From Steroidobacteraceae bacterium (GTDB taxonomy: Bacteria; Pseudomonadota; Gammaproteobacteria; Steroidobacterales; Steroidobacteraceae): a stretch of 30,235 nucleotides of DNA. Within the stretch, counting starts at the first letter, position 1. Every line of letters begins with the position of its first letter. The notes beneath the pieces are model-generated. The model did not search any database. It saw only the letters and a program-made list of their open reading frames with translations, and was not told the origin of the DNA. The position numbers were made by a program, and so were the translations under genes. Shown here in pieces: positions 18,135 to 23,321 of the stretch. The stretch covers positions 1 to 30,235 of the forward strand of contig DATMKO010000061.1 in the NCBI GenBank assembly GCA_035571175.1. The letters are read 5' to 3'.

Positions 18135-18476
18135 ATGAGCCGACCAATACCAGGCGCCGCCATCACACGCCGGGCGCTGGTGAAGAACATTGCCATTGCC
18201 GCCGGCGCCGCCGCGGTGCTGCCCCATCGAACATCGAACGCCGGCGAACCGCAGCGGCTCGACGTTAAGGATCCGGCGGCCAAGGCGCGCGGCTACGTCG
18301 AAGACGCACAGCAGCTGGACGTGAAGAAATATCCATCCTACGTGAAGGGTTCGACCTGCGAGAACTGTCTGCTGTTGCAAGGAGCCAGCGGCGCGAATTA
18401 CCGCCCCTGCAATTTGTTCCCCGGCAAGGTGGTCTCCGTCCGCGGCTGGTGCAGCGGCTGGGCCGCTGAAATATAG
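18135..18476 (+). CDS. High-potential iron-sulfur protein (HiPIP), Tat-exported (113 aa)
   Basis: Twin-arginine signal TRRALVK and DPAAKARGYVEDA motif. The four-Cys pattern CENC...CNLFPGKVV...GWCSGW is typical of HiPIP. AAGGA SD upstream. Confidence 0.92.
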   Translation: MSRPIPGAAITRRALVKNIAIAAGAAAVLPHRTSNAGEPQRLDVKDPAAKARGYVEDAQQLDVKKYPSYVKGSTCENCLLLQGASGANYRPCNLFPGKVVSVRGWCSGWAAEI

Positions 18477-19378
18477 GCGTCGCGCACTCGCACTCCCACC
18501 TCGGGAAAATCGACGAAGAATCCATCGATGCCACGCTGTAGAAATTCACGGATTTCCGCTTCCAGGTTGCCGTGCGCGGCCGGCGCGTCGCCGATTTTCA
18601 AGTCATCCGGGAGAAACTCGTTTTCGGCGCGAAAGGTCCAGACGTGCACCTGCAGATTCACGGCATGCGCCGCACGCACTGCCTCGAGCGTGGCCAGCGG
18701 CTTCGTGATGCCGATCCCATCGGCATAGGTTGCGATCTCTCCAAGATCGCCCAATTCCTGTTCGAGCAGCTGAATCAGCGGCAGCTTGGTCATGGCACGC
18801 AATTGCCGTAAATTATTCGGATCGAAGGACTGAATGAATACCGGCGCGCCATCCTTCGCGTAGTCATAGCGGCGCAGGGTGTTCAATACGGCCGATTCGA
18901 GCGGCAGCCCCATCCGTGCAAAATGTGCGGGGTGCTTGGTTTCCGGGTACACGCCGATCGGTCGATTGGCGTTGCGATGGTTTGCATTGATCACCAATTG
19001 CATGATTTCATCGAAGGTTGGCACGCTGAATCGGCCATCAAAAACGCGATTTTGCGGCCGCAATTCCGCCAGCCGTTCGCGGGCGCGCAGACTCTTGATT
19101 TCCGATAGTGTGAAATCTTCGCTGAACCATCCGTCCGTGGGTTCACCGTCGATGACTTGCGTGCGGCGGCGCATCGCGAACTCCGGATGCTGCGCGACAT
19201 CCGTCGTGCCGCCAATTTCATTCTCGTGCCGCGCGATCAGCACCCCGTCGCGCGTCATGACCAAGTCGGGTTCGATGTAATCCGCGCCCTCCTCGATCGC
19301 CAGTCGGTACGATTCCAGGGTGTGTTCCGGCCGTTCGCCGCTGGCGCCGCGATGCGCAATTACAATGATTTTGCTCAA
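18398..19378 (-). CDS. Glycerophosphodiester phosphodiesterase, GDPD/GlpQ-like (about 326 aa)
   Basis: IAHRGASGERPEHT, ADYIEPDLVMTRDG, ARHE, GVYPETKHP, VFIQSF, VHVWTFR and GIDGFFVDFP. The start was placed at TTG 19378 just before the catalytic motif (uncertain). No signal peptide is visible. Confidence 0.9.
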   Translation of the reverse strand: MSKIIVIAHRGASGERPEHTLESYRLAIEEGADYIEPDLVMTRDGVLIARHENEIGGTTDVAQHPEFAMRRRTQVIDGEPTDGWFSEDFTLSEIKSLRARERLAELRPQNRVFDGRFSVPTFDEIMQLVINANHRNANRPIGVYPETKHPAHFARMGLPLESAVLNTLRRYDYAKDGAPVFIQSFDPNNLRQLRAMTKLPLIQLLEQELGDLGEIATYADGIGITKPLATLEAVRAAHAVNLQVHVWTFRAENEFLPDDLKIGDAPAAHGNLEAEIREFLQRGIDGFFVDFPEVGVRVRDAYISAAQPLHQPRTETTLPGNKLQGR

Positions 19379-19477
19379 CGGGTACCCGTGCTTCAAAACA
19401 TTTGATTTTAGCGCACACGGGCAAGGCCGAGGCCCCGCGTTGCCACGGAACCTCGAGCCTTCAGTCCCCAACCCGTC

Positions 19478-19690
19478 CTATCGGGGCGGGTTCAACAGCG
19501 ACTCGTCCGGATCGTGCGCTGACATCAGACTGGCCGTGCCGGGGCTCCATGGCAACTCCTGTTGCCCGAAGCCACCGCCCCAATCCGCCCGCAGCGACGT
19601 TGGTTGAGCCGCGAAGGCGGCGCCGATCGCGAATATTGCCGCAGCCGCCACCGTGACCCTTCGATGATGCATGCCTGTCCCCGGACTCAT
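19478..19690 (-). CDS. Small secreted protein of unknown function (70 aa, or 64 aa from ATG 19672)
   Basis: Signal peptide HHRRVTVAAAAIFAIGAAFA, then a mature part of about 43 aa. ATG 19690 overlaps the upstream stop codon (ATGA), implying translational coupling. Confidence 0.65.
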   Translation of the reverse strand: MSPGTGMHHRRVTVAAAAIFAIGAAFAAQPTSLRADWGGGFGQQELPWSPGTASLMSAHDPDESLLNPPR

Positions 19691-19866
19691 GCGCTGTGCG
19701 GCGGCGTGATGGGCGGGTTGTCCATCAGGGCAACATGCGGCGGGGTGATGGGCGGGTTGTCCATCAAGGCAACATGCGGCGGGGTTATCGGCGGATTATC
19801 GAACATCGCCAAAGCGGAACTGGCCATAGCGCAGCCGGCGATCAAAGCGACTAGACTTACCTTCAT
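19687..19866 (-). CDS. Secreted multi-core peptide precursor (59 aa): signal peptide plus three DNPPITPPH cores
   Basis: Hand translation gives MKVSLVALIAGCAMASSALA-MFDNPPITPPHVALMDNPPITPPHVALMDNPPITPPHSA*. A GGAG SD lies upstream. All 7 variable nucleotide sites among the repeats are synonymous in this frame. It falls below the 60-aa cutoff of the ORF track. Confidence 0.85.
   Translation of the reverse strand: MKVSLVALIAGCAMASSALAMFDNPPITPPHVALMDNPPITPPHVALMDNPPITPPHSA
19696..19800 (-). repeat. Tandem repeat, 39-nt period, three 27-nt cores separated by two 12-nt linkers
   Basis: Units recur at 19696, 19735 and 19774. The cores encode DNPPITPPH and the linkers encode VALM. Confidence 0.95.
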
Positions 19867-20046
19867 AATGAATGCTCCGAATTTGAGTTGTTAAAAGGAC
19901 ACCGACAGGGGATGCCTGCGCGATGTCCTCATAGGTATAAGCGACATCTGTGGATGTTTCCCCTCATATTGGGCTGCGATATATGCTTAGGGGAAAACCT
20001 CAATCTGTATAGTGCCGTGAGCTTTTCCGAGCAACAGAAATAGACG

Positions 20047-20619
20047 ATGCAAGTCCCTGCCAATTTCACGCAGCTATTGACCGAGTGGCGCGCGGGTCAT
20101 CCGCAAGCGCTGGACCGTTTGACGCCTTTGGTATACGACGAACTTCGCCGCTTGGCGCACGGTTACATGCGCGCGGAGCGCGGCAGCCATACGCTGCAGG
20201 CCACCGCGGTAGTGCATGAAGCGTTTCTCAGATTGATCCAGGCGAATGTGGCGCTGGAGGATCGCGATCACTTTCTCGCCCTGGCTTCGCGCCTCATGCG
20301 CCGCGTGCTGGTCGATCATGCCAAGTCGCGTGCGCGGCTGAAGCGCAATGCCGGCATCAGGGGAACTCTCAGCGGCGAAGAAATGGGCAACAATTCGCCG
20401 TCGCTCGACGTCGACGTGATCGCCCTTGATGATGCGCTGGAGAATCTGCTGCAGCTGGAGCCGCGCCTGGCTCAGGTAATCGAGTTGTATTATTTCGGCG
20501 GAATGACATACGACGAAATTGCCGCCGCAACGGGCACCTCATCCGCCACCGTGCATCGGGATATCCGCCTGTCCCGCGCCTGGTTGCTCAATGAAATCGG
20601 CGGCACCCGATCGACATGA
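20047..20619 (+). CDS. ECF sigma factor, TIGR02999/ECF43-like kinase-associated group (190 aa)
   Basis: TQLLTEWRAG..ALDRLTPLVYDELRRLA..HTLQATAVVHEAFLRL..MRRVLVDHA, and region 4 ELYYFGGMTYDEIA..TVHRDIRLSRAWL. It overlaps the kinase start by 4 nt (ATGA). Confidence 0.92.
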   Translation: MQVPANFTQLLTEWRAGHPQALDRLTPLVYDELRRLAHGYMRAERGSHTLQATAVVHEAFLRLIQANVALEDRDHFLALASRLMRRVLVDHAKSRARLKRNAGIRGTLSGEEMGNNSPSLDVDVIALDDALENLLQLEPRLAQVIELYYFGGMTYDEIAAATGTSSATVHRDIRLSRAWLLNEIGGTRST

Positions 20620-23321
20620 TTCCGCGCGCTCGCTGGCAGCAGATTCAGACCTTGTTCGACCAGTTGGCTGATGTCGAGATCGCCGAACGCGCCGCACAAT
20701 TGGAAAAGAGCTGCGGTGACGACACCGAACTGCGCCTGTCGGTGACCTCCCTCCTCGATCTTGATCGGCGGCGCGAGGACCCGCTTCTGGATGCCATCGG
20801 CACGGCCGCCGAGTCATTATTGGAAGATCACCGCGATCGCTTGATTGGTACGCGCGTGGGTCCGTACCGGGTGGTATCGATTCTCGGCCATGGCGGTATG
20901 AGCACGGTGTATCGCGGCGAGCGCGACGACTCGCAATACCAGCAAACCGTGGCGATCAAGGTACTGCAGCATGCCGCATTGCATCCGCGGCTGCGCAGCA
21001 GGTTGCACAGCGAAAGGCATATCCTCGCGACGCTCGATCATACTTCCATCGCGCGCCTGATCGACAGCGGCGATCTGGAGGACGGCACCCCCTACCTGGT
21101 GATGGAACACGTCGACGGCGAATCCATCGACAGCTATTGCGACAGCCGCACCTTGTTCGTTCGCGAGCGCATCGAATTGTTCATCGCGGTATGCGCTGCG
21201 GTGCACTATGCGCACCGCAACCTGGTGGTACATCGGGATATCAAGGCGTCGAACATCTTCGTCACCCACGACGGTACGCCAAAGCTGCTGGATTTCGGTA
21301 TTGCCAAGTTGCTCGCGCCGGAAAGTCTGTCGCACACGCTTCCGGTGACGCGTCTGCAGGAACGGATCCTCACGCCGGAGAACGCCGCGCCGGAACAGGT
21401 TCTCGGGCGGCCCATTACCACCGCGACCGACATTTACGCGCTCGGCGTGCTGCTGTACCAGCTGTTGACGGGCCGATCCCCATATCGGCTGCTCAGCTAC
21501 AGCCAGCTGCAACTGGAGCGGGCCATCTGCATGGACGATCCGGTGCGCCCGAGTCAAATGGTCGTTTCCAAGCTGAAAGGCGAAACCGACGCGGACCGCA
21601 GCCGCATTTCCGATCGCCGCGGCCTCTCTCCGCAGCGCTTGCGTGCCCGTCTGAGCGGCGACCTGGATGCCATCGTCGCCATGGCGATGCGCAAGGAACC
21701 GGATCGGCGCTACCCATCCGTCGAAGCCTTCGCCGACGATCTGCAAAGACACCTGCTGGGACAGCCGGTGCGCGCGCGCCAGGGCGATTGGCGCTACAAC
21801 TCCGCCAAGTTCCTGCGGCGCAATGTATTCGCAGTCCTCGGAGCGGCGGCGGTATTCGTGGGGTTGGTCGTGATCGCAGGCATGACCCTCTGGCAGAATC
21901 ACCGCATCGGAATTGCGCGCGACGCCACCGCCCAAGAACGCGACCGCGCACAGCAGGTATCCGCGTTTCTGGTCGACGTGTTCTCGCAAGCCGATCCTTT
22001 CAATGCCCAAGGCCGGGAAATCACCGCCAAAGACTTGCTGGATCGAGGCGCAGAGAAGATCACCGGCAATGCGAATCTACAGCCTGAAGTGCGCGCGCAG
22101 CTGCTGGAGAGCATCGGTCTTGCGTACCGGCGCCAGGGATTGAACGAGCGCGCCATACCCTTGTTCGAACAAGCGGTTGCCATCCGGCGCGAGGAGCAGC
22201 CGCTCGATAATCGCACTCTCGCCGCAGCTTTGGCCAATTTGGCCCAGGCGTTGACCGGTGCGGGGCATTTGGTGAGCGCCGATGCCTACATGCAGCAAGC
22301 GGTCGCCCTGTCGCAAAGCAGCGATGCGCCGCCATCGGCGGAAACCGCCGACATTCTGGTGCAGTACGGGCATTTTGCTCAAAACGCCAAGAGTGACCCG
22401 GAACTGGCCACCAAGCAGTTTACCGACGCGCTCGCCATCTACCGCAATCTTCCCGGCGATCAGCATTTGTCGATTGCCTCAACCTTGAGTGCTCTTGCCG
22501 GCGCAGCGATTTGGTCGGGCGACTATGTGCATGGCGAGCAGTATCAACGCGAGGCGCTCAACCTGTTTCGCGCCACGGTCAGCCGCAATTATCCCGATCA
22601 CGCCGTGGCGCTGGCGGGCTTGGGCAACATTCTCACCCAGCGCGGCAAGTATGCCGAAGCCGATCAGACCCTCAACGAGGCCTTGGAGATAGAGCGCAAC
22701 GTTTTTGGCCCGGACAATCAGCGGATCGCATCGATCGAGGCCGATCTTGGCGCTTTGTATCAGCGCGAAGGGGACCCGCTTCGCGCCATGGCCTCGACGC
22801 AGGACGCCTTGAGGATCACTACGAGCCGCTTGGGCCCCAATCACTACATGACCGGATACTATCTGGATGCGGTCGCCGACCTTGATCTCAAGAACAATCA
22901 TCTGGACGACGCCGAATCTCATGCGCGGCAAGCGCTCGCCGTATACGCGCAGTCGCTGCCTGCGCGGCATTTATTTGTAGCCGCGACGCGACAGCTGCTC
23001 GGAGAAGTACTTCTGCGCCGCGGCCAACTTGCGCAAGCCGAAGCGGAGGTTCGCGCCGCGCTGGATATCGACCTTGCATTGGCGGGACCCGGAAATTGGC
23101 GCACTGCTCGCACCGAGGCGAGCCTGGGCTGGATCTTGATCGCGGAAGACAAGGCAGCGGAGGGCGAGCCTTTGCTGCTCGAGGCGCAGAAAAAACTCTT
23201 GGCGATGTTGGGCCCGCAGCATCCCGAAACCGCGCAGGCAACCTCGCGCCTCAGCGATTACTACCACGCGCATCACCGCGACGCCGACGCCGCGCAACTT
23301 CATGCGGCCGACAAACACTAG
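20616..23321 (+). CDS. Membrane Ser/Thr protein kinase with C-terminal extracytoplasmic TPR domain (901 aa)
   Basis: Hanks motifs LGHGGMSTVY, VAIK, HRDIKASN, DFGIAK, APEQ and TDIYALG. One TM helix (VLGAAAVFVGLVVIAGMTLW) is followed by roughly 450 aa of TPR repeats. Confidence 0.93.
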   Translation: MIPRARWQQIQTLFDQLADVEIAERAAQLEKSCGDDTELRLSVTSLLDLDRRREDPLLDAIGTAAESLLEDHRDRLIGTRVGPYRVVSILGHGGMSTVYRGERDDSQYQQTVAIKVLQHAALHPRLRSRLHSERHILATLDHTSIARLIDSGDLEDGTPYLVMEHVDGESIDSYCDSRTLFVRERIELFIAVCAAVHYAHRNLVVHRDIKASNIFVTHDGTPKLLDFGIAKLLAPESLSHTLPVTRLQERILTPENAAPEQVLGRPITTATDIYALGVLLYQLLTGRSPYRLLSYSQLQLERAICMDDPVRPSQMVVSKLKGETDADRSRISDRRGLSPQRLRARLSGDLDAIVAMAMRKEPDRRYPSVEAFADDLQRHLLGQPVRARQGDWRYNSAKFLRRNVFAVLGAAAVFVGLVVIAGMTLWQNHRIGIARDATAQERDRAQQVSAFLVDVFSQADPFNAQGREITAKDLLDRGAEKITGNANLQPEVRAQLLESIGLAYRRQGLNERAIPLFEQAVAIRREEQPLDNRTLAAALANLAQALTGAGHLVSADAYMQQAVALSQSSDAPPSAETADILVQYGHFAQNAKSDPELATKQFTDALAIYRNLPGDQHLSIASTLSALAGAAIWSGDYVHGEQYQREALNLFRATVSRNYPDHAVALAGLGNILTQRGKYAEADQTLNEALEIERNVFGPDNQRIASIEADLGALYQREGDPLRAMASTQDALRITTSRLGPNHYMTGYYLDAVADLDLKNNHLDDAESHARQALAVYAQSLPARHLFVAATRQLLGEVLLRRGQLAQAEAEVRAALDIDLALAGPGNWRTARTEASLGWILIAEDKAAEGEPLLLEAQKKLLAMLGPQHPETAQATSRLSDYYHAHHRDADAAQLHAADKH

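What the first reader, a model, noticed from the sequence alone, without database searches (positions are those of the whole stretch)
19687..19866. Unannotated secreted precursor with three identical DNPPITPPH cores: candidate peptide signal or RiPP-like product
Seen: a 59-aa ORF missed by the track, with an SD, a signal peptide (A-L-A cleavage site; a weaker alternative lipobox IAG-C12) and three identical 9-aa cores separated by VALM. All 7 variable nucleotide sites among the repeats are synonymous (GAT/GAC, AAT/AAC, CCG/CCC, ATA/ATC, ACC/ACG, CAT/CAC, TTG/CTG), which points to purifying selection on the peptide. The PP pairs near both ends of the core would resist exopeptidases. Established: multi-core precursors are typical of yeast alpha-factor and of cyanobactin and dikaritin RiPPs. 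Inference: it yields a diffusible DNPPITPPH-type peptide. No modifying enzymes are adjacent, so an unmodified signal is more likely than a modified RiPP.
Basis: partly seen in the sequence, partly recalled or inferred. Interest (0 to 1): 0.9.

Follow-up and report, generated by a model that had tools for sequence, protein, structure and literature searches.

The report
Exported multi-copy proline-rich peptide gene
This is a real, strongly transcribed gene of uncultured soil Steroidobacteraceae that encodes an export signal followed only by repeated copies of a 9-residue proline-rich peptide. It travels as one four-gene cassette with a sigma factor and a membrane kinase, so it is a good but unproven candidate for a peptide-based signalling or feedback loop in a Gram-negative bacterium.

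Summary
The 59-codon ORF (19687-19866, minus strand) has a conserved GGAG ribosome-binding site, a signal peptide ending A-L-A, and three DNPPITPPH cores. All 7 nucleotide differences between the repeats are synonymous.

- **Family:** It is new, with no Pfam or NCBIfam match. It occurs in 104 of 150 species genomes of one Steroidobacteraceae genus and was not found outside it.
- **Structure:** Members carry 1 to 9 cores of the form D-x-P-x-x-x-P-P-x. Spacers are 2-6 residues long.
- **Selection:** Within arrays the core is under strong purifying selection (pN/pS 0.12) and the spacer looks neutral (1.10). Between species, core changes appear in every copy at once.
- **Single-core members:** These would give mature products of only about 14-20 residues, so the functional unit is a peptide, not a fold.
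- **Expression:** In four soil metatranscriptomes the gene and a second exported-peptide gene (orf70) have depth 10-82. Flanking genes have 0-7.
- **Cassette:** The two peptide genes, an ECF43-type sigma factor and a PknS-like kinase with a periplasmic TPR domain form one 3.9-kb insertion/deletion unit. A promoter-like motif unique in this genome lies upstream of the peptide gene.

The reading as a diffusible signal is not shown. I found no processing site, exporter or peptide/TPR co-evolution signal. Earlier notes from this scan describe similar layouts on other DNA; I did not check them.

The parts
19687..19866 (-). Repeat-peptide gene ('rep'), 59 codons plus stop: signal peptide followed by three 13-residue units
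   Evidence: ORF and translation. Homologues in 104/150 genus genomes. Within-array core pN/pS 0.12. RNA contigs at depth 10-82.
19807..19866 (-). Signal peptide, residues 1-20, predicted signal peptidase I site after A-L-A
   Evidence: Hydrophobic profile. A-x-A/AFA is conserved across the family. The mature part is an exact multiple of 13 residues. It evolves more slowly (p-distance 0.19) than the core (0.42).
19690..19800 (-). Three tandem units: 9-residue core DNPPITPPH plus spacer VALM (last unit has the tail SA)
   Evidence: All 7 differences between units are synonymous.
19875..19878 (-). Shine-Dalgarno GGAG, 8 nt upstream of the ATG
   Evidence: conserved column block in the 43-locus alignment.
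19940..19966 (-). Bipartite promoter-like motif TGAGGG-N15-GTCGCT, 73 nt upstream of the ATG
   Evidence: Both blocks are invariant, at fixed spacing and fixed distance to the ATG, in 42 of 43 loci. No other match in the own genome fits the conserved consensus. RNA contigs start downstream of it and none covers it. The sigma factor that uses it is inferred, not shown.
19896..19930 (-). Stem-loop at the start of the 5' UTR
   Evidence: Folds of 42 loci: mean z -1.57, with stems that differ in sequence between lineages. RNAalifold on the MAFFT alignment gave no consensus. No Rfam match.
19987..19998 (+). Inverted copy of the -35-like block (TTAGGGGAAAAC) pointing toward the sigma gene
   Evidence: Present about 55 nt upstream of the sigma ATG in most lineages but absent in the DDPG-core clade. 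Function not determined.
19478..19672 (-). orf70: second exported peptide gene. The likely start is MHHRR (64 codons); an upstream ATG at 19690 overlaps the rep stop as ATGA.
   Evidence: Conserved in all complete loci, signal peptide ending AFA, about 43-residue mature part ending P-P-R. The start was chosen from homologues. One RNA contig spans the rep/orf70 junction. AlphaFold2 gives no structure for the mature part.
20047..20619 (+). ECF43-type sigma factor, divergent from rep
   Evidence: PF07638 at 1.3e-45; TIGR02999 at 1.3e-56. It has Q-A-T-A in region 2.2 where ECF43 members carry QTTA/STTA with the phospho-Thr (PMC13147305, PMC8999054). The orthologue is present in the same genomes as rep.
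20616..23321 (+). PknS-like Hanks Ser/Thr kinase: 83-residue N-extension, kinase domain, one transmembrane helix (residues about 402-424), periplasmic TPR region (residues about 431-901)
   Evidence: Pfam Pkinase plus TPR_12/TPR_10. Single hydrophobic segment. The best solved structure, 9eed_A, covers the N-extension and kinase, E 2.4e-47. The gene overlaps the sigma stop by 4 nt.
19478..23321 (.). Four-gene cassette (orf70, rep, sigma, kinase) inserted between the GDPD gene and the Ysc84-domain gene
   Evidence: Synteny is fixed in 43 loci. In two genomes without the cassette, GDPD and the Ysc84 gene are direct divergent neighbours.

Best explanation
The ORF is a real gene for a Sec-exported propeptide. 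It consists only of a signal peptide and tandem copies of a 9-residue proline-rich core (family pattern D-x-P-x-x-x-P-P-x) separated by short unconstrained spacers. There are three copies in this assembly and 1-9 across the family.

Together with a second exported peptide gene (orf70, about 43 mature residues) it forms a highly transcribed operon. That operon is divergent from an ECF43-type sigma factor and a PknS-like receptor kinase whose TPR domain faces the periplasm. The four genes are one cassette.

The short linear core, not a folded domain, is the functional unit. The most likely circuit has three steps:
1. The kinase phosphorylates the sigma factor.
2. The sigma factor drives the promoter upstream of the peptide gene, which is unique in this genome.
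3. The exported peptide(s) act in the cell envelope, most plausibly on the kinase's own TPR domain. This would close a feedback or self-sensing loop.

Shown here:
- the gene is coding and under selection;
- it is transcribed far above its neighbours;
- it belongs to a cassette;
- the family has a core/spacer architecture.

Inferred:
- Sec export and cleavage after Ala20;
- that the cassette's sigma factor uses the promoter;
- that the TPR domain is the target;
- whether the array is cut into single cores.
For: **Coding and selection**
- All 7 differences in the window are synonymous.
- Across 44 distinct genes, variation between repeats of one array gives a core pN/pS of 0.12 (165 synonymous, 56 non-synonymous). 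The spacer gives 1.10 (27 and 77).
- Between species, core changes are shared by all copies. L046 has T6 to V in all 5 cores although its signal-peptide DNA is identical to the window's.
- The non-synonymous to synonymous count is 100:82 between species against 56:165 within arrays.

**Peptide rather than fold**
- Single-core genes of 34-42 codons in a whole subclade keep the promoter motif and orf70.
- The repeat period varies from 11 to 15 residues while the core stays at 9.
- AlphaFold2 gives pLDDT 43 for an 8-unit member.

**Expression**
- Four metatranscriptomes show depth 10-82 over rep and orf70, against 0-7 on GDPD, sigma and kinase.

**Cassette**
- Presence or absence of rep and the sigma orthologue agrees in 140 of 150 genomes. 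The discordant cases I examined (6 of 10) are explained by frameshifts or divergence, and two more lie at contig ends.
- GDPD and the Ysc84 gene are adjacent where the cassette is missing.
- Neither peptide gene was found outside the genus. There are only 86 clusters in 1.84 billion representative proteins.

**Promoter**
- An invariant bipartite motif lies at fixed spacing and distance in 42 of 43 loci, and no other match in the own genome fits the conserved consensus.

**Regulator type**
- TIGR02999 sigma with QATA, and a kinase like X. citri PknS with a periplasmic TPR domain (PMC13147305).
Against: - No experiment or signal-peptide predictor was available, so export and the cleavage site are inferred.
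- No published ECF43 promoter consensus was found to compare with the motif. The 15-nt spacer is short for typical ECF promoters.
- The cassette is fixed in one clade, so co-occurrence may reflect very few gain or loss events.
- A partial Mantel test found no link between core and TPR divergence once the kinase domain is controlled for (r 0.04, p 0.30).
- TPR dN/dS is 0.10-0.20, which is purifying.
- The spacers have no conserved protease site, and the cassette has no protease or exporter.
- The selection counts are not phylogenetically independent.
- RNA contigs carry no strand information.
Confidence: 0.5

Rival explanations
1. Diffusible cell-to-cell pheromone. The array is cut into single cores that leave the cell, accumulate with density and are sensed by the TPR kinase. 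This would be quorum sensing with species-specific 'pherotypes'.
For: - Conserved leader with a fast-changing core.
- Array-wide switches between very close relatives.
- Identical cores kept by selection.
- 1-9 cores, as in tandemly duplicated Phr propeptides (PMC11343458).
- High transcript level.
- Adjacent TPR receptor.
Against: - Sec export ends in the periplasm. No outer-membrane exporter or processing protease is in the cassette.
- No conserved cleavage site in the spacers.
- No peptide/TPR co-evolution signal.
- There is no evidence of release from cells.
Confidence: 0.17
2. An output with no feedback role. The exported peptides are the effectors of the sigma/kinase stress response, acting intact on another envelope or external target. 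They could be a multivalent binder or decoy, or an envelope protectant.
For: - Studied ECF43/kinase pairs respond to envelope threats: polymyxin for EcfP/PknT and amoebal predation for EcfK/PknS (PMC8999054, PMC13147305).
- No co-evolution with the TPR domain.
- No processing site in the spacers.
- Very high expression, as for small stress-induced periplasmic proteins.
Against: - Single-core members make multivalency non-essential.
- Rapid species-specific change of the core, with identity enforced within arrays, fits a co-adapting partner better than a generic target.
- The cassette contains no other candidate partner.
Confidence: 0.2
3. RiPP precursor whose modifying enzymes are encoded elsewhere in the genome.
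For: Multi-core layout and a conserved N-terminal region, as in cyanobactin-type precursors. This rests on established knowledge, not on a test here.
Against: - The gain/loss unit holds only two peptide genes, a sigma factor and a kinase.
- The N-terminus looks like an ordinary Sec signal with an A-x-A site.
- The core has no Cys, Ser/Thr pattern or aromatic residue that is conserved across the family.
Confidence: 0.04
4. Lipoprotein or rigid polyproline spacer protein anchored by Cys12 (lipobox I-A-G-C).
For: The window sequence has L-I-A-G-C, and Cys12 is conserved in most members.
Against: - Cys is absent in several members.
- Cys at position 12 leaves a very short signal.
- The residues after Cys are hydrophobic up to a conserved A-x-A.
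- Single-core members and the variable period argue against a spacer rod.
Confidence: 0.05
5. Translation-stalling leader. The many Pro-Pro motifs make the ORF a sensor of EF-P/proline supply, or of Sec activity (SecM/VemP-like), that controls the downstream orf70.
For: Six or more Pro-Pro pairs in 59 codons, a signal peptide, and orf70 starting 15 nt after (or overlapping) the stop.
Against: - Selection also keeps the non-proline core positions identical within arrays.
- The copy number varies from 1 to 9.
- The RNA depth of rep is equal to or above that of orf70.
- Known arrest peptides are single-copy.
Confidence: 0.04

Closest known systems
Tandemly duplicated Phr propeptides of Rap-Phr (RRNPPA) quorum sensing in Bacillota (PMC11343458)
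   Same: A small gene next to its TPR-domain partner. It has an export signal followed by one or several copies of a short unmodified peptide, and the peptide diversifies quickly between lineages.
   Different: - Here the host is a Gram-negative gammaproteobacterium.
- The TPR domain is predicted to be periplasmic, on a Hanks kinase. It is not on a cytoplasmic Rap/HTH receptor.
- No Opp re-import step is implied.
- The cores are 9 residues and proline-rich.
- Processing and signalling are unproven.
EcfK/PknS of Xanthomonas citri and EcfP/PknT of Vibrio parahaemolyticus (ECF43 sigma factor activated by a Hanks kinase; PMC13147305, PMC8999054)
   Same: - The sigma factor is in the same family and has Thr in place of the acidic region-2.2 motif.
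- The kinase gene is co-directional and overlapping.
- No anti-sigma factor is present.
- The kinase has an N-extension, one transmembrane helix and periplasmic TPR repeats.
   Different: Those systems control a T6SS or polymyxin resistance, and no ligand of the periplasmic domain is named in the two papers cited. Here the only genes that travel with the pair are two exported peptide genes behind a unique promoter.
Yeast alpha-factor and fungal Kex2-processed repeat proteins (PMC7329392)
   Same: A signal peptide followed by tandem identical peptides separated by spacers. The copy number varies between species.
   Different: The spacers here have no dibasic Kex2-type site. The system is bacterial, with Sec export into a periplasm.
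Multi-core RiPP precursors (cyanobactins, dikaritins)
   Same: Several identical or similar cores in one precursor, with a conserved N-terminal part.
   Different: No modifying enzyme, protease or transporter is linked. The N-terminus is a Sec signal, not a recognition leader.
Microbisporicin MibX/MibW feed-forward (as summarised in PMC4203916)
   Same: An exported peptide that feeds back on an ECF sigma factor controlling its own production.
   Different: That system is an actinomycete lantibiotic acting through an anti-sigma factor. This one has no anti-sigma factor, and the peptide is apparently unmodified.

Membership tests
ECF43-type sigma factor / Hanks kinase pair (neighbour genes) | Sigma factor of the TIGR02999/PF07638 type that lacks the acidic DAED motif in region 2.2 and has a Thr there (QTTA/STTA) | tested here: met
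   PF07638 at 1.3e-45; TIGR02999 at 191 bits against a cut-off of 126. The sequence reads L-Q-A-T-A-V-V-H-E at residues 50-58. Motif as described in PMC13147305 and PMC8999054.
ECF43-type sigma factor / Hanks kinase pair (neighbour genes) | Adjacent Hanks-type kinase and no anti-sigma factor | tested here: met
   The kinase overlaps the sigma stop by 4 nt. The cassette holds no other regulator.
ECF43-type sigma factor / Hanks kinase pair (neighbour genes) | [quoted passage not shown] | not testable with these tools
   Needs biochemistry.
RRNPPA-type (Rap-Phr-like) peptide signalling | Sec-exported propeptide with the pheromone unit(s) in its C-terminal part | tested here: inconclusive
   The signal-like N-terminus and 1-9 C-terminal units are seen in the sequence. 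Export and maturation were not tested.
RRNPPA-type (Rap-Phr-like) peptide signalling | Cytoplasmic TPR receptor (Rap phosphatase or HTH regulator) reached after Opp import | tested here: not met
   The only TPR protein in the cassette is a membrane kinase, with its TPR region after the single transmembrane helix, so it is periplasmic.
RiPP precursor (cyanobactin/dikaritin-like multi-core) | Co-encoded modifying enzymes and a processing protease or exporter | tested here: not met
   The four-gene insertion/deletion unit has none. The flanking genes are GDPD, HiPIP, Ysc84 and SAM hydroxide adenosyltransferase.
Kex2-processed repeat proteins / alpha-factor type | Dibasic (KR/RR) cleavage sites between the repeats | tested here: not met
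   The spacers are mostly small and hydrophobic (VALM, AAVM, LALT and others). Only some lineages have a single Arg.
Bacterial lipoprotein | A conserved lipobox Cys that becomes residue +1 | tested here: inconclusive
   L-I-A-G-C is present here and in most members, but Cys is missing in L090, L113, L115, P0069 and P0079. No lipoprotein predictor was available.
Any curated protein family | A match to Pfam or NCBIfam | tested here: not met
   No family matched rep, a 9-unit member, a single-core member or orf70. Atlas look-alikes scored 0.81 or less, which is the noise range.

The most novel reading that the evidence does not exclude
A self-contained peptide quorum-sensing circuit in a Gram-negative bacterium. 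An unmodified, Sec-exported, multi-copy proline-rich pheromone is sensed in the periplasm by the TPR domain of a Hanks kinase. The kinase phosphorylates an ECF43 sigma factor, which in turn drives the pheromone promoter. Species-specific cores would act as pherotypes. If so, this would also name the first ligand class for the periplasmic TPR domains of PknS-type kinases.
Probability: 0.15. Interest if true: 0.9.

Novelty: new variant of a known kind. Interest (0 to 1): 0.68.

Why it matters
Unmodified peptide signalling with tandem propeptides and TPR receptors is characterised mainly in Gram-positive bacteria. In Gram-negatives, the papers on PknS-type kinases and their ECF43 sigma factors that I read name no ligand for the periplasmic domain.

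This cassette offers a compact, testable candidate: two exported peptides, one kinase, one sigma factor and one promoter. It also has natural variants, with 1-9 cores and core switches between near-identical strains, that can be used directly in binding and reporter assays.

Even if the peptides turn out to be only an output, they define a new, abundant and highly expressed family of small exported peptides in widespread soil and peat Steroidobacteraceae that current annotation misses.

Tried and rejected
- **Protein family searches:** Pfam and NCBIfam found nothing for rep, orf70, a 9-unit member or a single-core member.
- **ESM Atlas:** the best score was 0.81, within noise.
- **AlphaFold2:** an 8-unit member gave pLDDT 43. 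For orf70 only the signal helix was confident. I ran no fold search because the models are not usable.
- **Mirror-tree test:** core divergence tracks phylogeny. The partial Mantel correlation of core with TPR given the kinase domain is r 0.04, p 0.30.
- **TPR selection:** dN/dS is 0.10-0.20, so there is no domain-wide positive selection.
- **5' UTR structure:** RNAalifold gave no consensus. Single-sequence folds suggest a hairpin. Rfam found nothing.
- **Paralogous sigma/kinase pairs:** one in the own genome (C295), and homologues at 40-52% identity in nine other gammaproteobacterial genomes, have no comparable repeat ORF.
- **Pro-Pro endopeptidase:** a search for a family M34 enzyme that could cut N-P|P-I found nothing in the own genome. 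The control genomes also gave nothing, so this is uninformative.
- **Sigma-70 promoter hit:** the one at 19865-19894 is rejected as the main promoter, because RNA contigs extend upstream to 19907.
- **Antisense ORF:** the 110-aa ORF is rejected, because the repeat differences are non-synonymous in that frame.
- **Resemblances recalled from memory:** similarity of the core to insect proline-rich antimicrobial peptides and to EVH1/WW ligands. I did not pursue these, because the charge and cell compartment do not fit.

Full report
**1. Observation**

The minus-strand ORF 19687-19866 encodes 59 residues.
- Its N-terminus is a hydrophobic signal ending S-A-L-A.
- It has a GGAG ribosome-binding site 8 nt before the ATG.
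- It has three units of DNPPITPPH. The first two are followed by VALM and the last by SA.
- Tandem Repeats Finder reports a 39-nt period at 19697-19794.
The chance of this is about 4.5e-5.
- In the antisense 110-aa ORF the same sites change residues, so the minus-strand frame is the one under selection.

**2. Organism and family**

Record titles of related loci name uncultured Steroidobacteraceae (Gammaproteobacteria) MAGs from soil and peat. The window is a whole contig of a MAG that is 76% complete.

Distribution:
- A profile of the signal plus two units finds the gene in 104 of 150 species genomes of the genus.
- It was not found in 24 other genomes of the order (23 other genera).
- There are only 86 clusters among 1.84 billion representative proteins, all but two of them under 200 residues.
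- No Pfam or NCBIfam family matches.

Variation among members:
- The signal is conserved, close to MKVSLIALVAGCAVASSAFA.
- There are 1 to 9 units.
- The 9-residue core differs between species, for example DNPPMTPPH, DLPPILPPH, DTPPTSPPH, DDPGVNPPR, DSVPSTPPH and DSIGTHPPQ. Only D1 and the second Pro of the C-terminal Pro-Pro pair are essentially invariant.
- Spacers are 2-6 residues, so the period varies from 11 to 15 while the core stays at 9.
- A whole subclade has single-core genes of 34-42 codons. Their mature products would be about 14-20 residues.
- AlphaFold2 finds no confident fold for an 8-unit member (pLDDT 43).

Taken together, the functional unit is a short linear peptide.

**3. 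Selection**

Variation between repeats of the same array, over 44 distinct genes:

| Region | Synonymous | Non-synonymous | pN/pS |
|---|---|---|---|
| Core | 165 | 56 | 0.12 |
| Spacer | 27 | 77 | 1.10 |

Variation between species, summed over a minimum spanning tree:

| Region | pN/pS |
|---|---|
| Signal peptide | 0.19 |
| Core | 0.42 |
| Spacer | 0.51 |

- Core positions 3, 5 and 6 are near or above 1 between species.
- For the core, the non-synonymous to synonymous count is 56:165 within arrays and about 100:82 between species. The Fisher p is 2e-9, not corrected for shared ancestry.
- A clear example: the window, L044, L045 and L046 share an identical 66-nt signal region, yet L046 has Thr6 to Val in all five cores.

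So the copies must encode the same peptide within a genome, while the peptide changes between lineages. That is what one expects of a ligand that matches a partner. These counts are not independent across related genomes.

**4. Expression**

- Contigs of four soil metatranscriptomes match the locus, 17 of 24 of them at 99% or better. Their depths are 10-82 over rep and orf70, against 0-7 over the GDPD, sigma and kinase genes. The uneven profile argues against DNA carry-over.
- The contigs reach 19907, which is 41 nt upstream of the ATG.
- None covers 19908-19952, where the promoter-like motif lies.
- One contig spans the rep/orf70 junction.
- Contigs carry no strand information.

**5. Context**

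*orf70.* It lies directly downstream. Homologues show that its start is the MHHRR methionine (19672), not the ATGA-overlapping ATG. It has its own signal ending AFA and a mature part of about 43 residues. That part has conserved Trp and Pro-Gly and a C-terminal P-P-R, with no predicted structure. It was not found in 149 genomes of 53 other genera of the order.

*Sigma factor and kinase.* Divergently lie a TIGR02999/PF07638 sigma factor and a Hanks kinase.
- The sigma factor has Q-A-T-A in region 2.2, which is the ECF43 hallmark position of the phospho-threonine (PMC13147305, PMC8999054).
- The kinase has an 83-residue N-extension, a single transmembrane helix and about 470 residues of periplasmic TPR repeats.
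- Its best solved relative is 9eed_A, which covers the N-extension plus kinase. This is the architecture described for X. citri PknS in PMC13147305. That paper gives no accession in the passages I read, so the identity of 9eed is my inference.

*Synteny and co-occurrence.*
- Synteny is fixed in 43 loci.
- The sigma orthologue is found in 104 of 150 genomes. Both genes are present in 99 and both absent in 41.
- Of the ten discordant genomes, the six I examined are frameshifted sigma genes or divergent rep genes, and two more lie at contig ends.
- In two genomes without the cassette, the GDPD gene and the Ysc84-domain gene are direct divergent neighbours.

So orf70, rep, sigma and kinase are one 3.9-kb insertion/deletion unit. 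Because carriers may form one clade, this may represent few events.

**6. Promoter**

- The intergenic region has two invariant blocks, TGAGGG and GTCGCT, 15 nt apart and 73-75 nt from the ATG in most of 42 of 43 loci.
- The window copy is at 19940-19966.
- A pattern scan of the own genome finds no other convincing copy.
- An inverted copy of the first block points toward the sigma gene in most lineages.
- A stem-loop follows the predicted start, and its sequence differs between lineages.
- That the cassette's sigma factor uses this promoter is an inference. The papers I read give no ECF43 promoter consensus.

**7. Mechanism**

The best-supported reading is an output operon for two exported peptides, controlled by the cassette's sigma/kinase pair. 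The peptides would act in the envelope, most plausibly on the kinase's TPR domain. This reading has three gaps:
- There is no specific co-variation between core and TPR.
- There is no processing site or exporter.
- The signal peptide cleavage is only predicted.

The rivals are a true diffusible pheromone, a pure effector output, a RiPP, a lipoprotein and a stalling leader. They are weighed in their own sections of this report.

**8. Comparison with known systems**

The closest known analogues are:
- tandemly duplicated Phr propeptides with TPR receptors in Bacillota (PMC11343458);
- fungal Kex2-processed repeat proteins (PMC7329392);
- peptide feedback on an ECF sigma factor in microbisporicin production (PMC4203916, background section).

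The gene fails the defining tests for RiPP, Kex2-type and RRNPPA membership, but it resembles the last of these in logic.

**9. Data note**

The tallies include genomes flagged as unpublished (G078-G082). Locus L040, from G080, is one of the 44 genes. No conclusion depends on them.

**10. Earlier notes of this scan**

Notes on the same window propose the same circuit and the second peptide. Notes on other genomes describe ECF sigma/TPR-kinase operons with divergent tandem-repeat mini-protein genes. I did not check those, and they are not independent evidence.

Noticed in passing
window 19478-19690 (-): Second exported peptide gene, orf70. Homologues start at the MHHRR methionine (19672), so the ATGA overlap with the rep stop is probably not the real start. 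The family ends in P-P-R, faintly like the repeat core.
   Followed up: partly
window 19697-19800: The three-unit array may be a collapsed assembly. The nearest long-read relatives (L044, L045, L046), which have an identical signal-peptide DNA, carry five units. A 2-unit version (P0002) sits on a 3.5-kb contig.
   Followed up: partly
window 19896-19930 (-): 5' UTR stem-loop just after the predicted transcription start. Its stem sequences differ between lineages (mean fold z -1.57 over 42 loci). There is no Rfam match.
   Followed up: partly
window 19987-19998 (+): Inverted copy of the -35-like block, facing the sigma gene. It is present in most lineages but absent in the clade with DDPG-type cores. 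It could be the sigma gene's own promoter or a regulator site.
   Followed up: partly
window 18398-19471 (-): The listed TTG start of the GDPD gene is probably too far upstream. In genomes without the cassette the protein begins about 40 residues later, just before the conserved block VIAHRGASG.
   Followed up: no
G000 contig C197:2491-2655 (+) and L120 (divergent ORF 67 nt from the sigma gene): Next to paralogous kinase or sigma genes lies a small ORF with a proline-rich N-terminus and a glycine-zipper transmembrane tail. In C197 it overlaps the kinase's N-terminal region on the other strand, so it may not be real.
   Followed up: no
L061 and L041 (same gene); L085: In L061/L041 the array ends in a frameshifted arginine-rich tail. 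In L085 the rep frame breaks after the signal peptide, although repeats continue in another frame. These are either decaying genes or long-read indel errors.
   Followed up: no
window 19771: Three metatranscriptomes carry A>G here. In rep this is a synonymous third-position change in Val32.
   Followed up: no
window 20616-23321 compared with L046: Between the window and L046, 30 of 36 kinase amino-acid differences lie in the periplasmic TPR region and only one lies in the kinase domain. The TPR dN/dS is still 0.16.
   Followed up: yes
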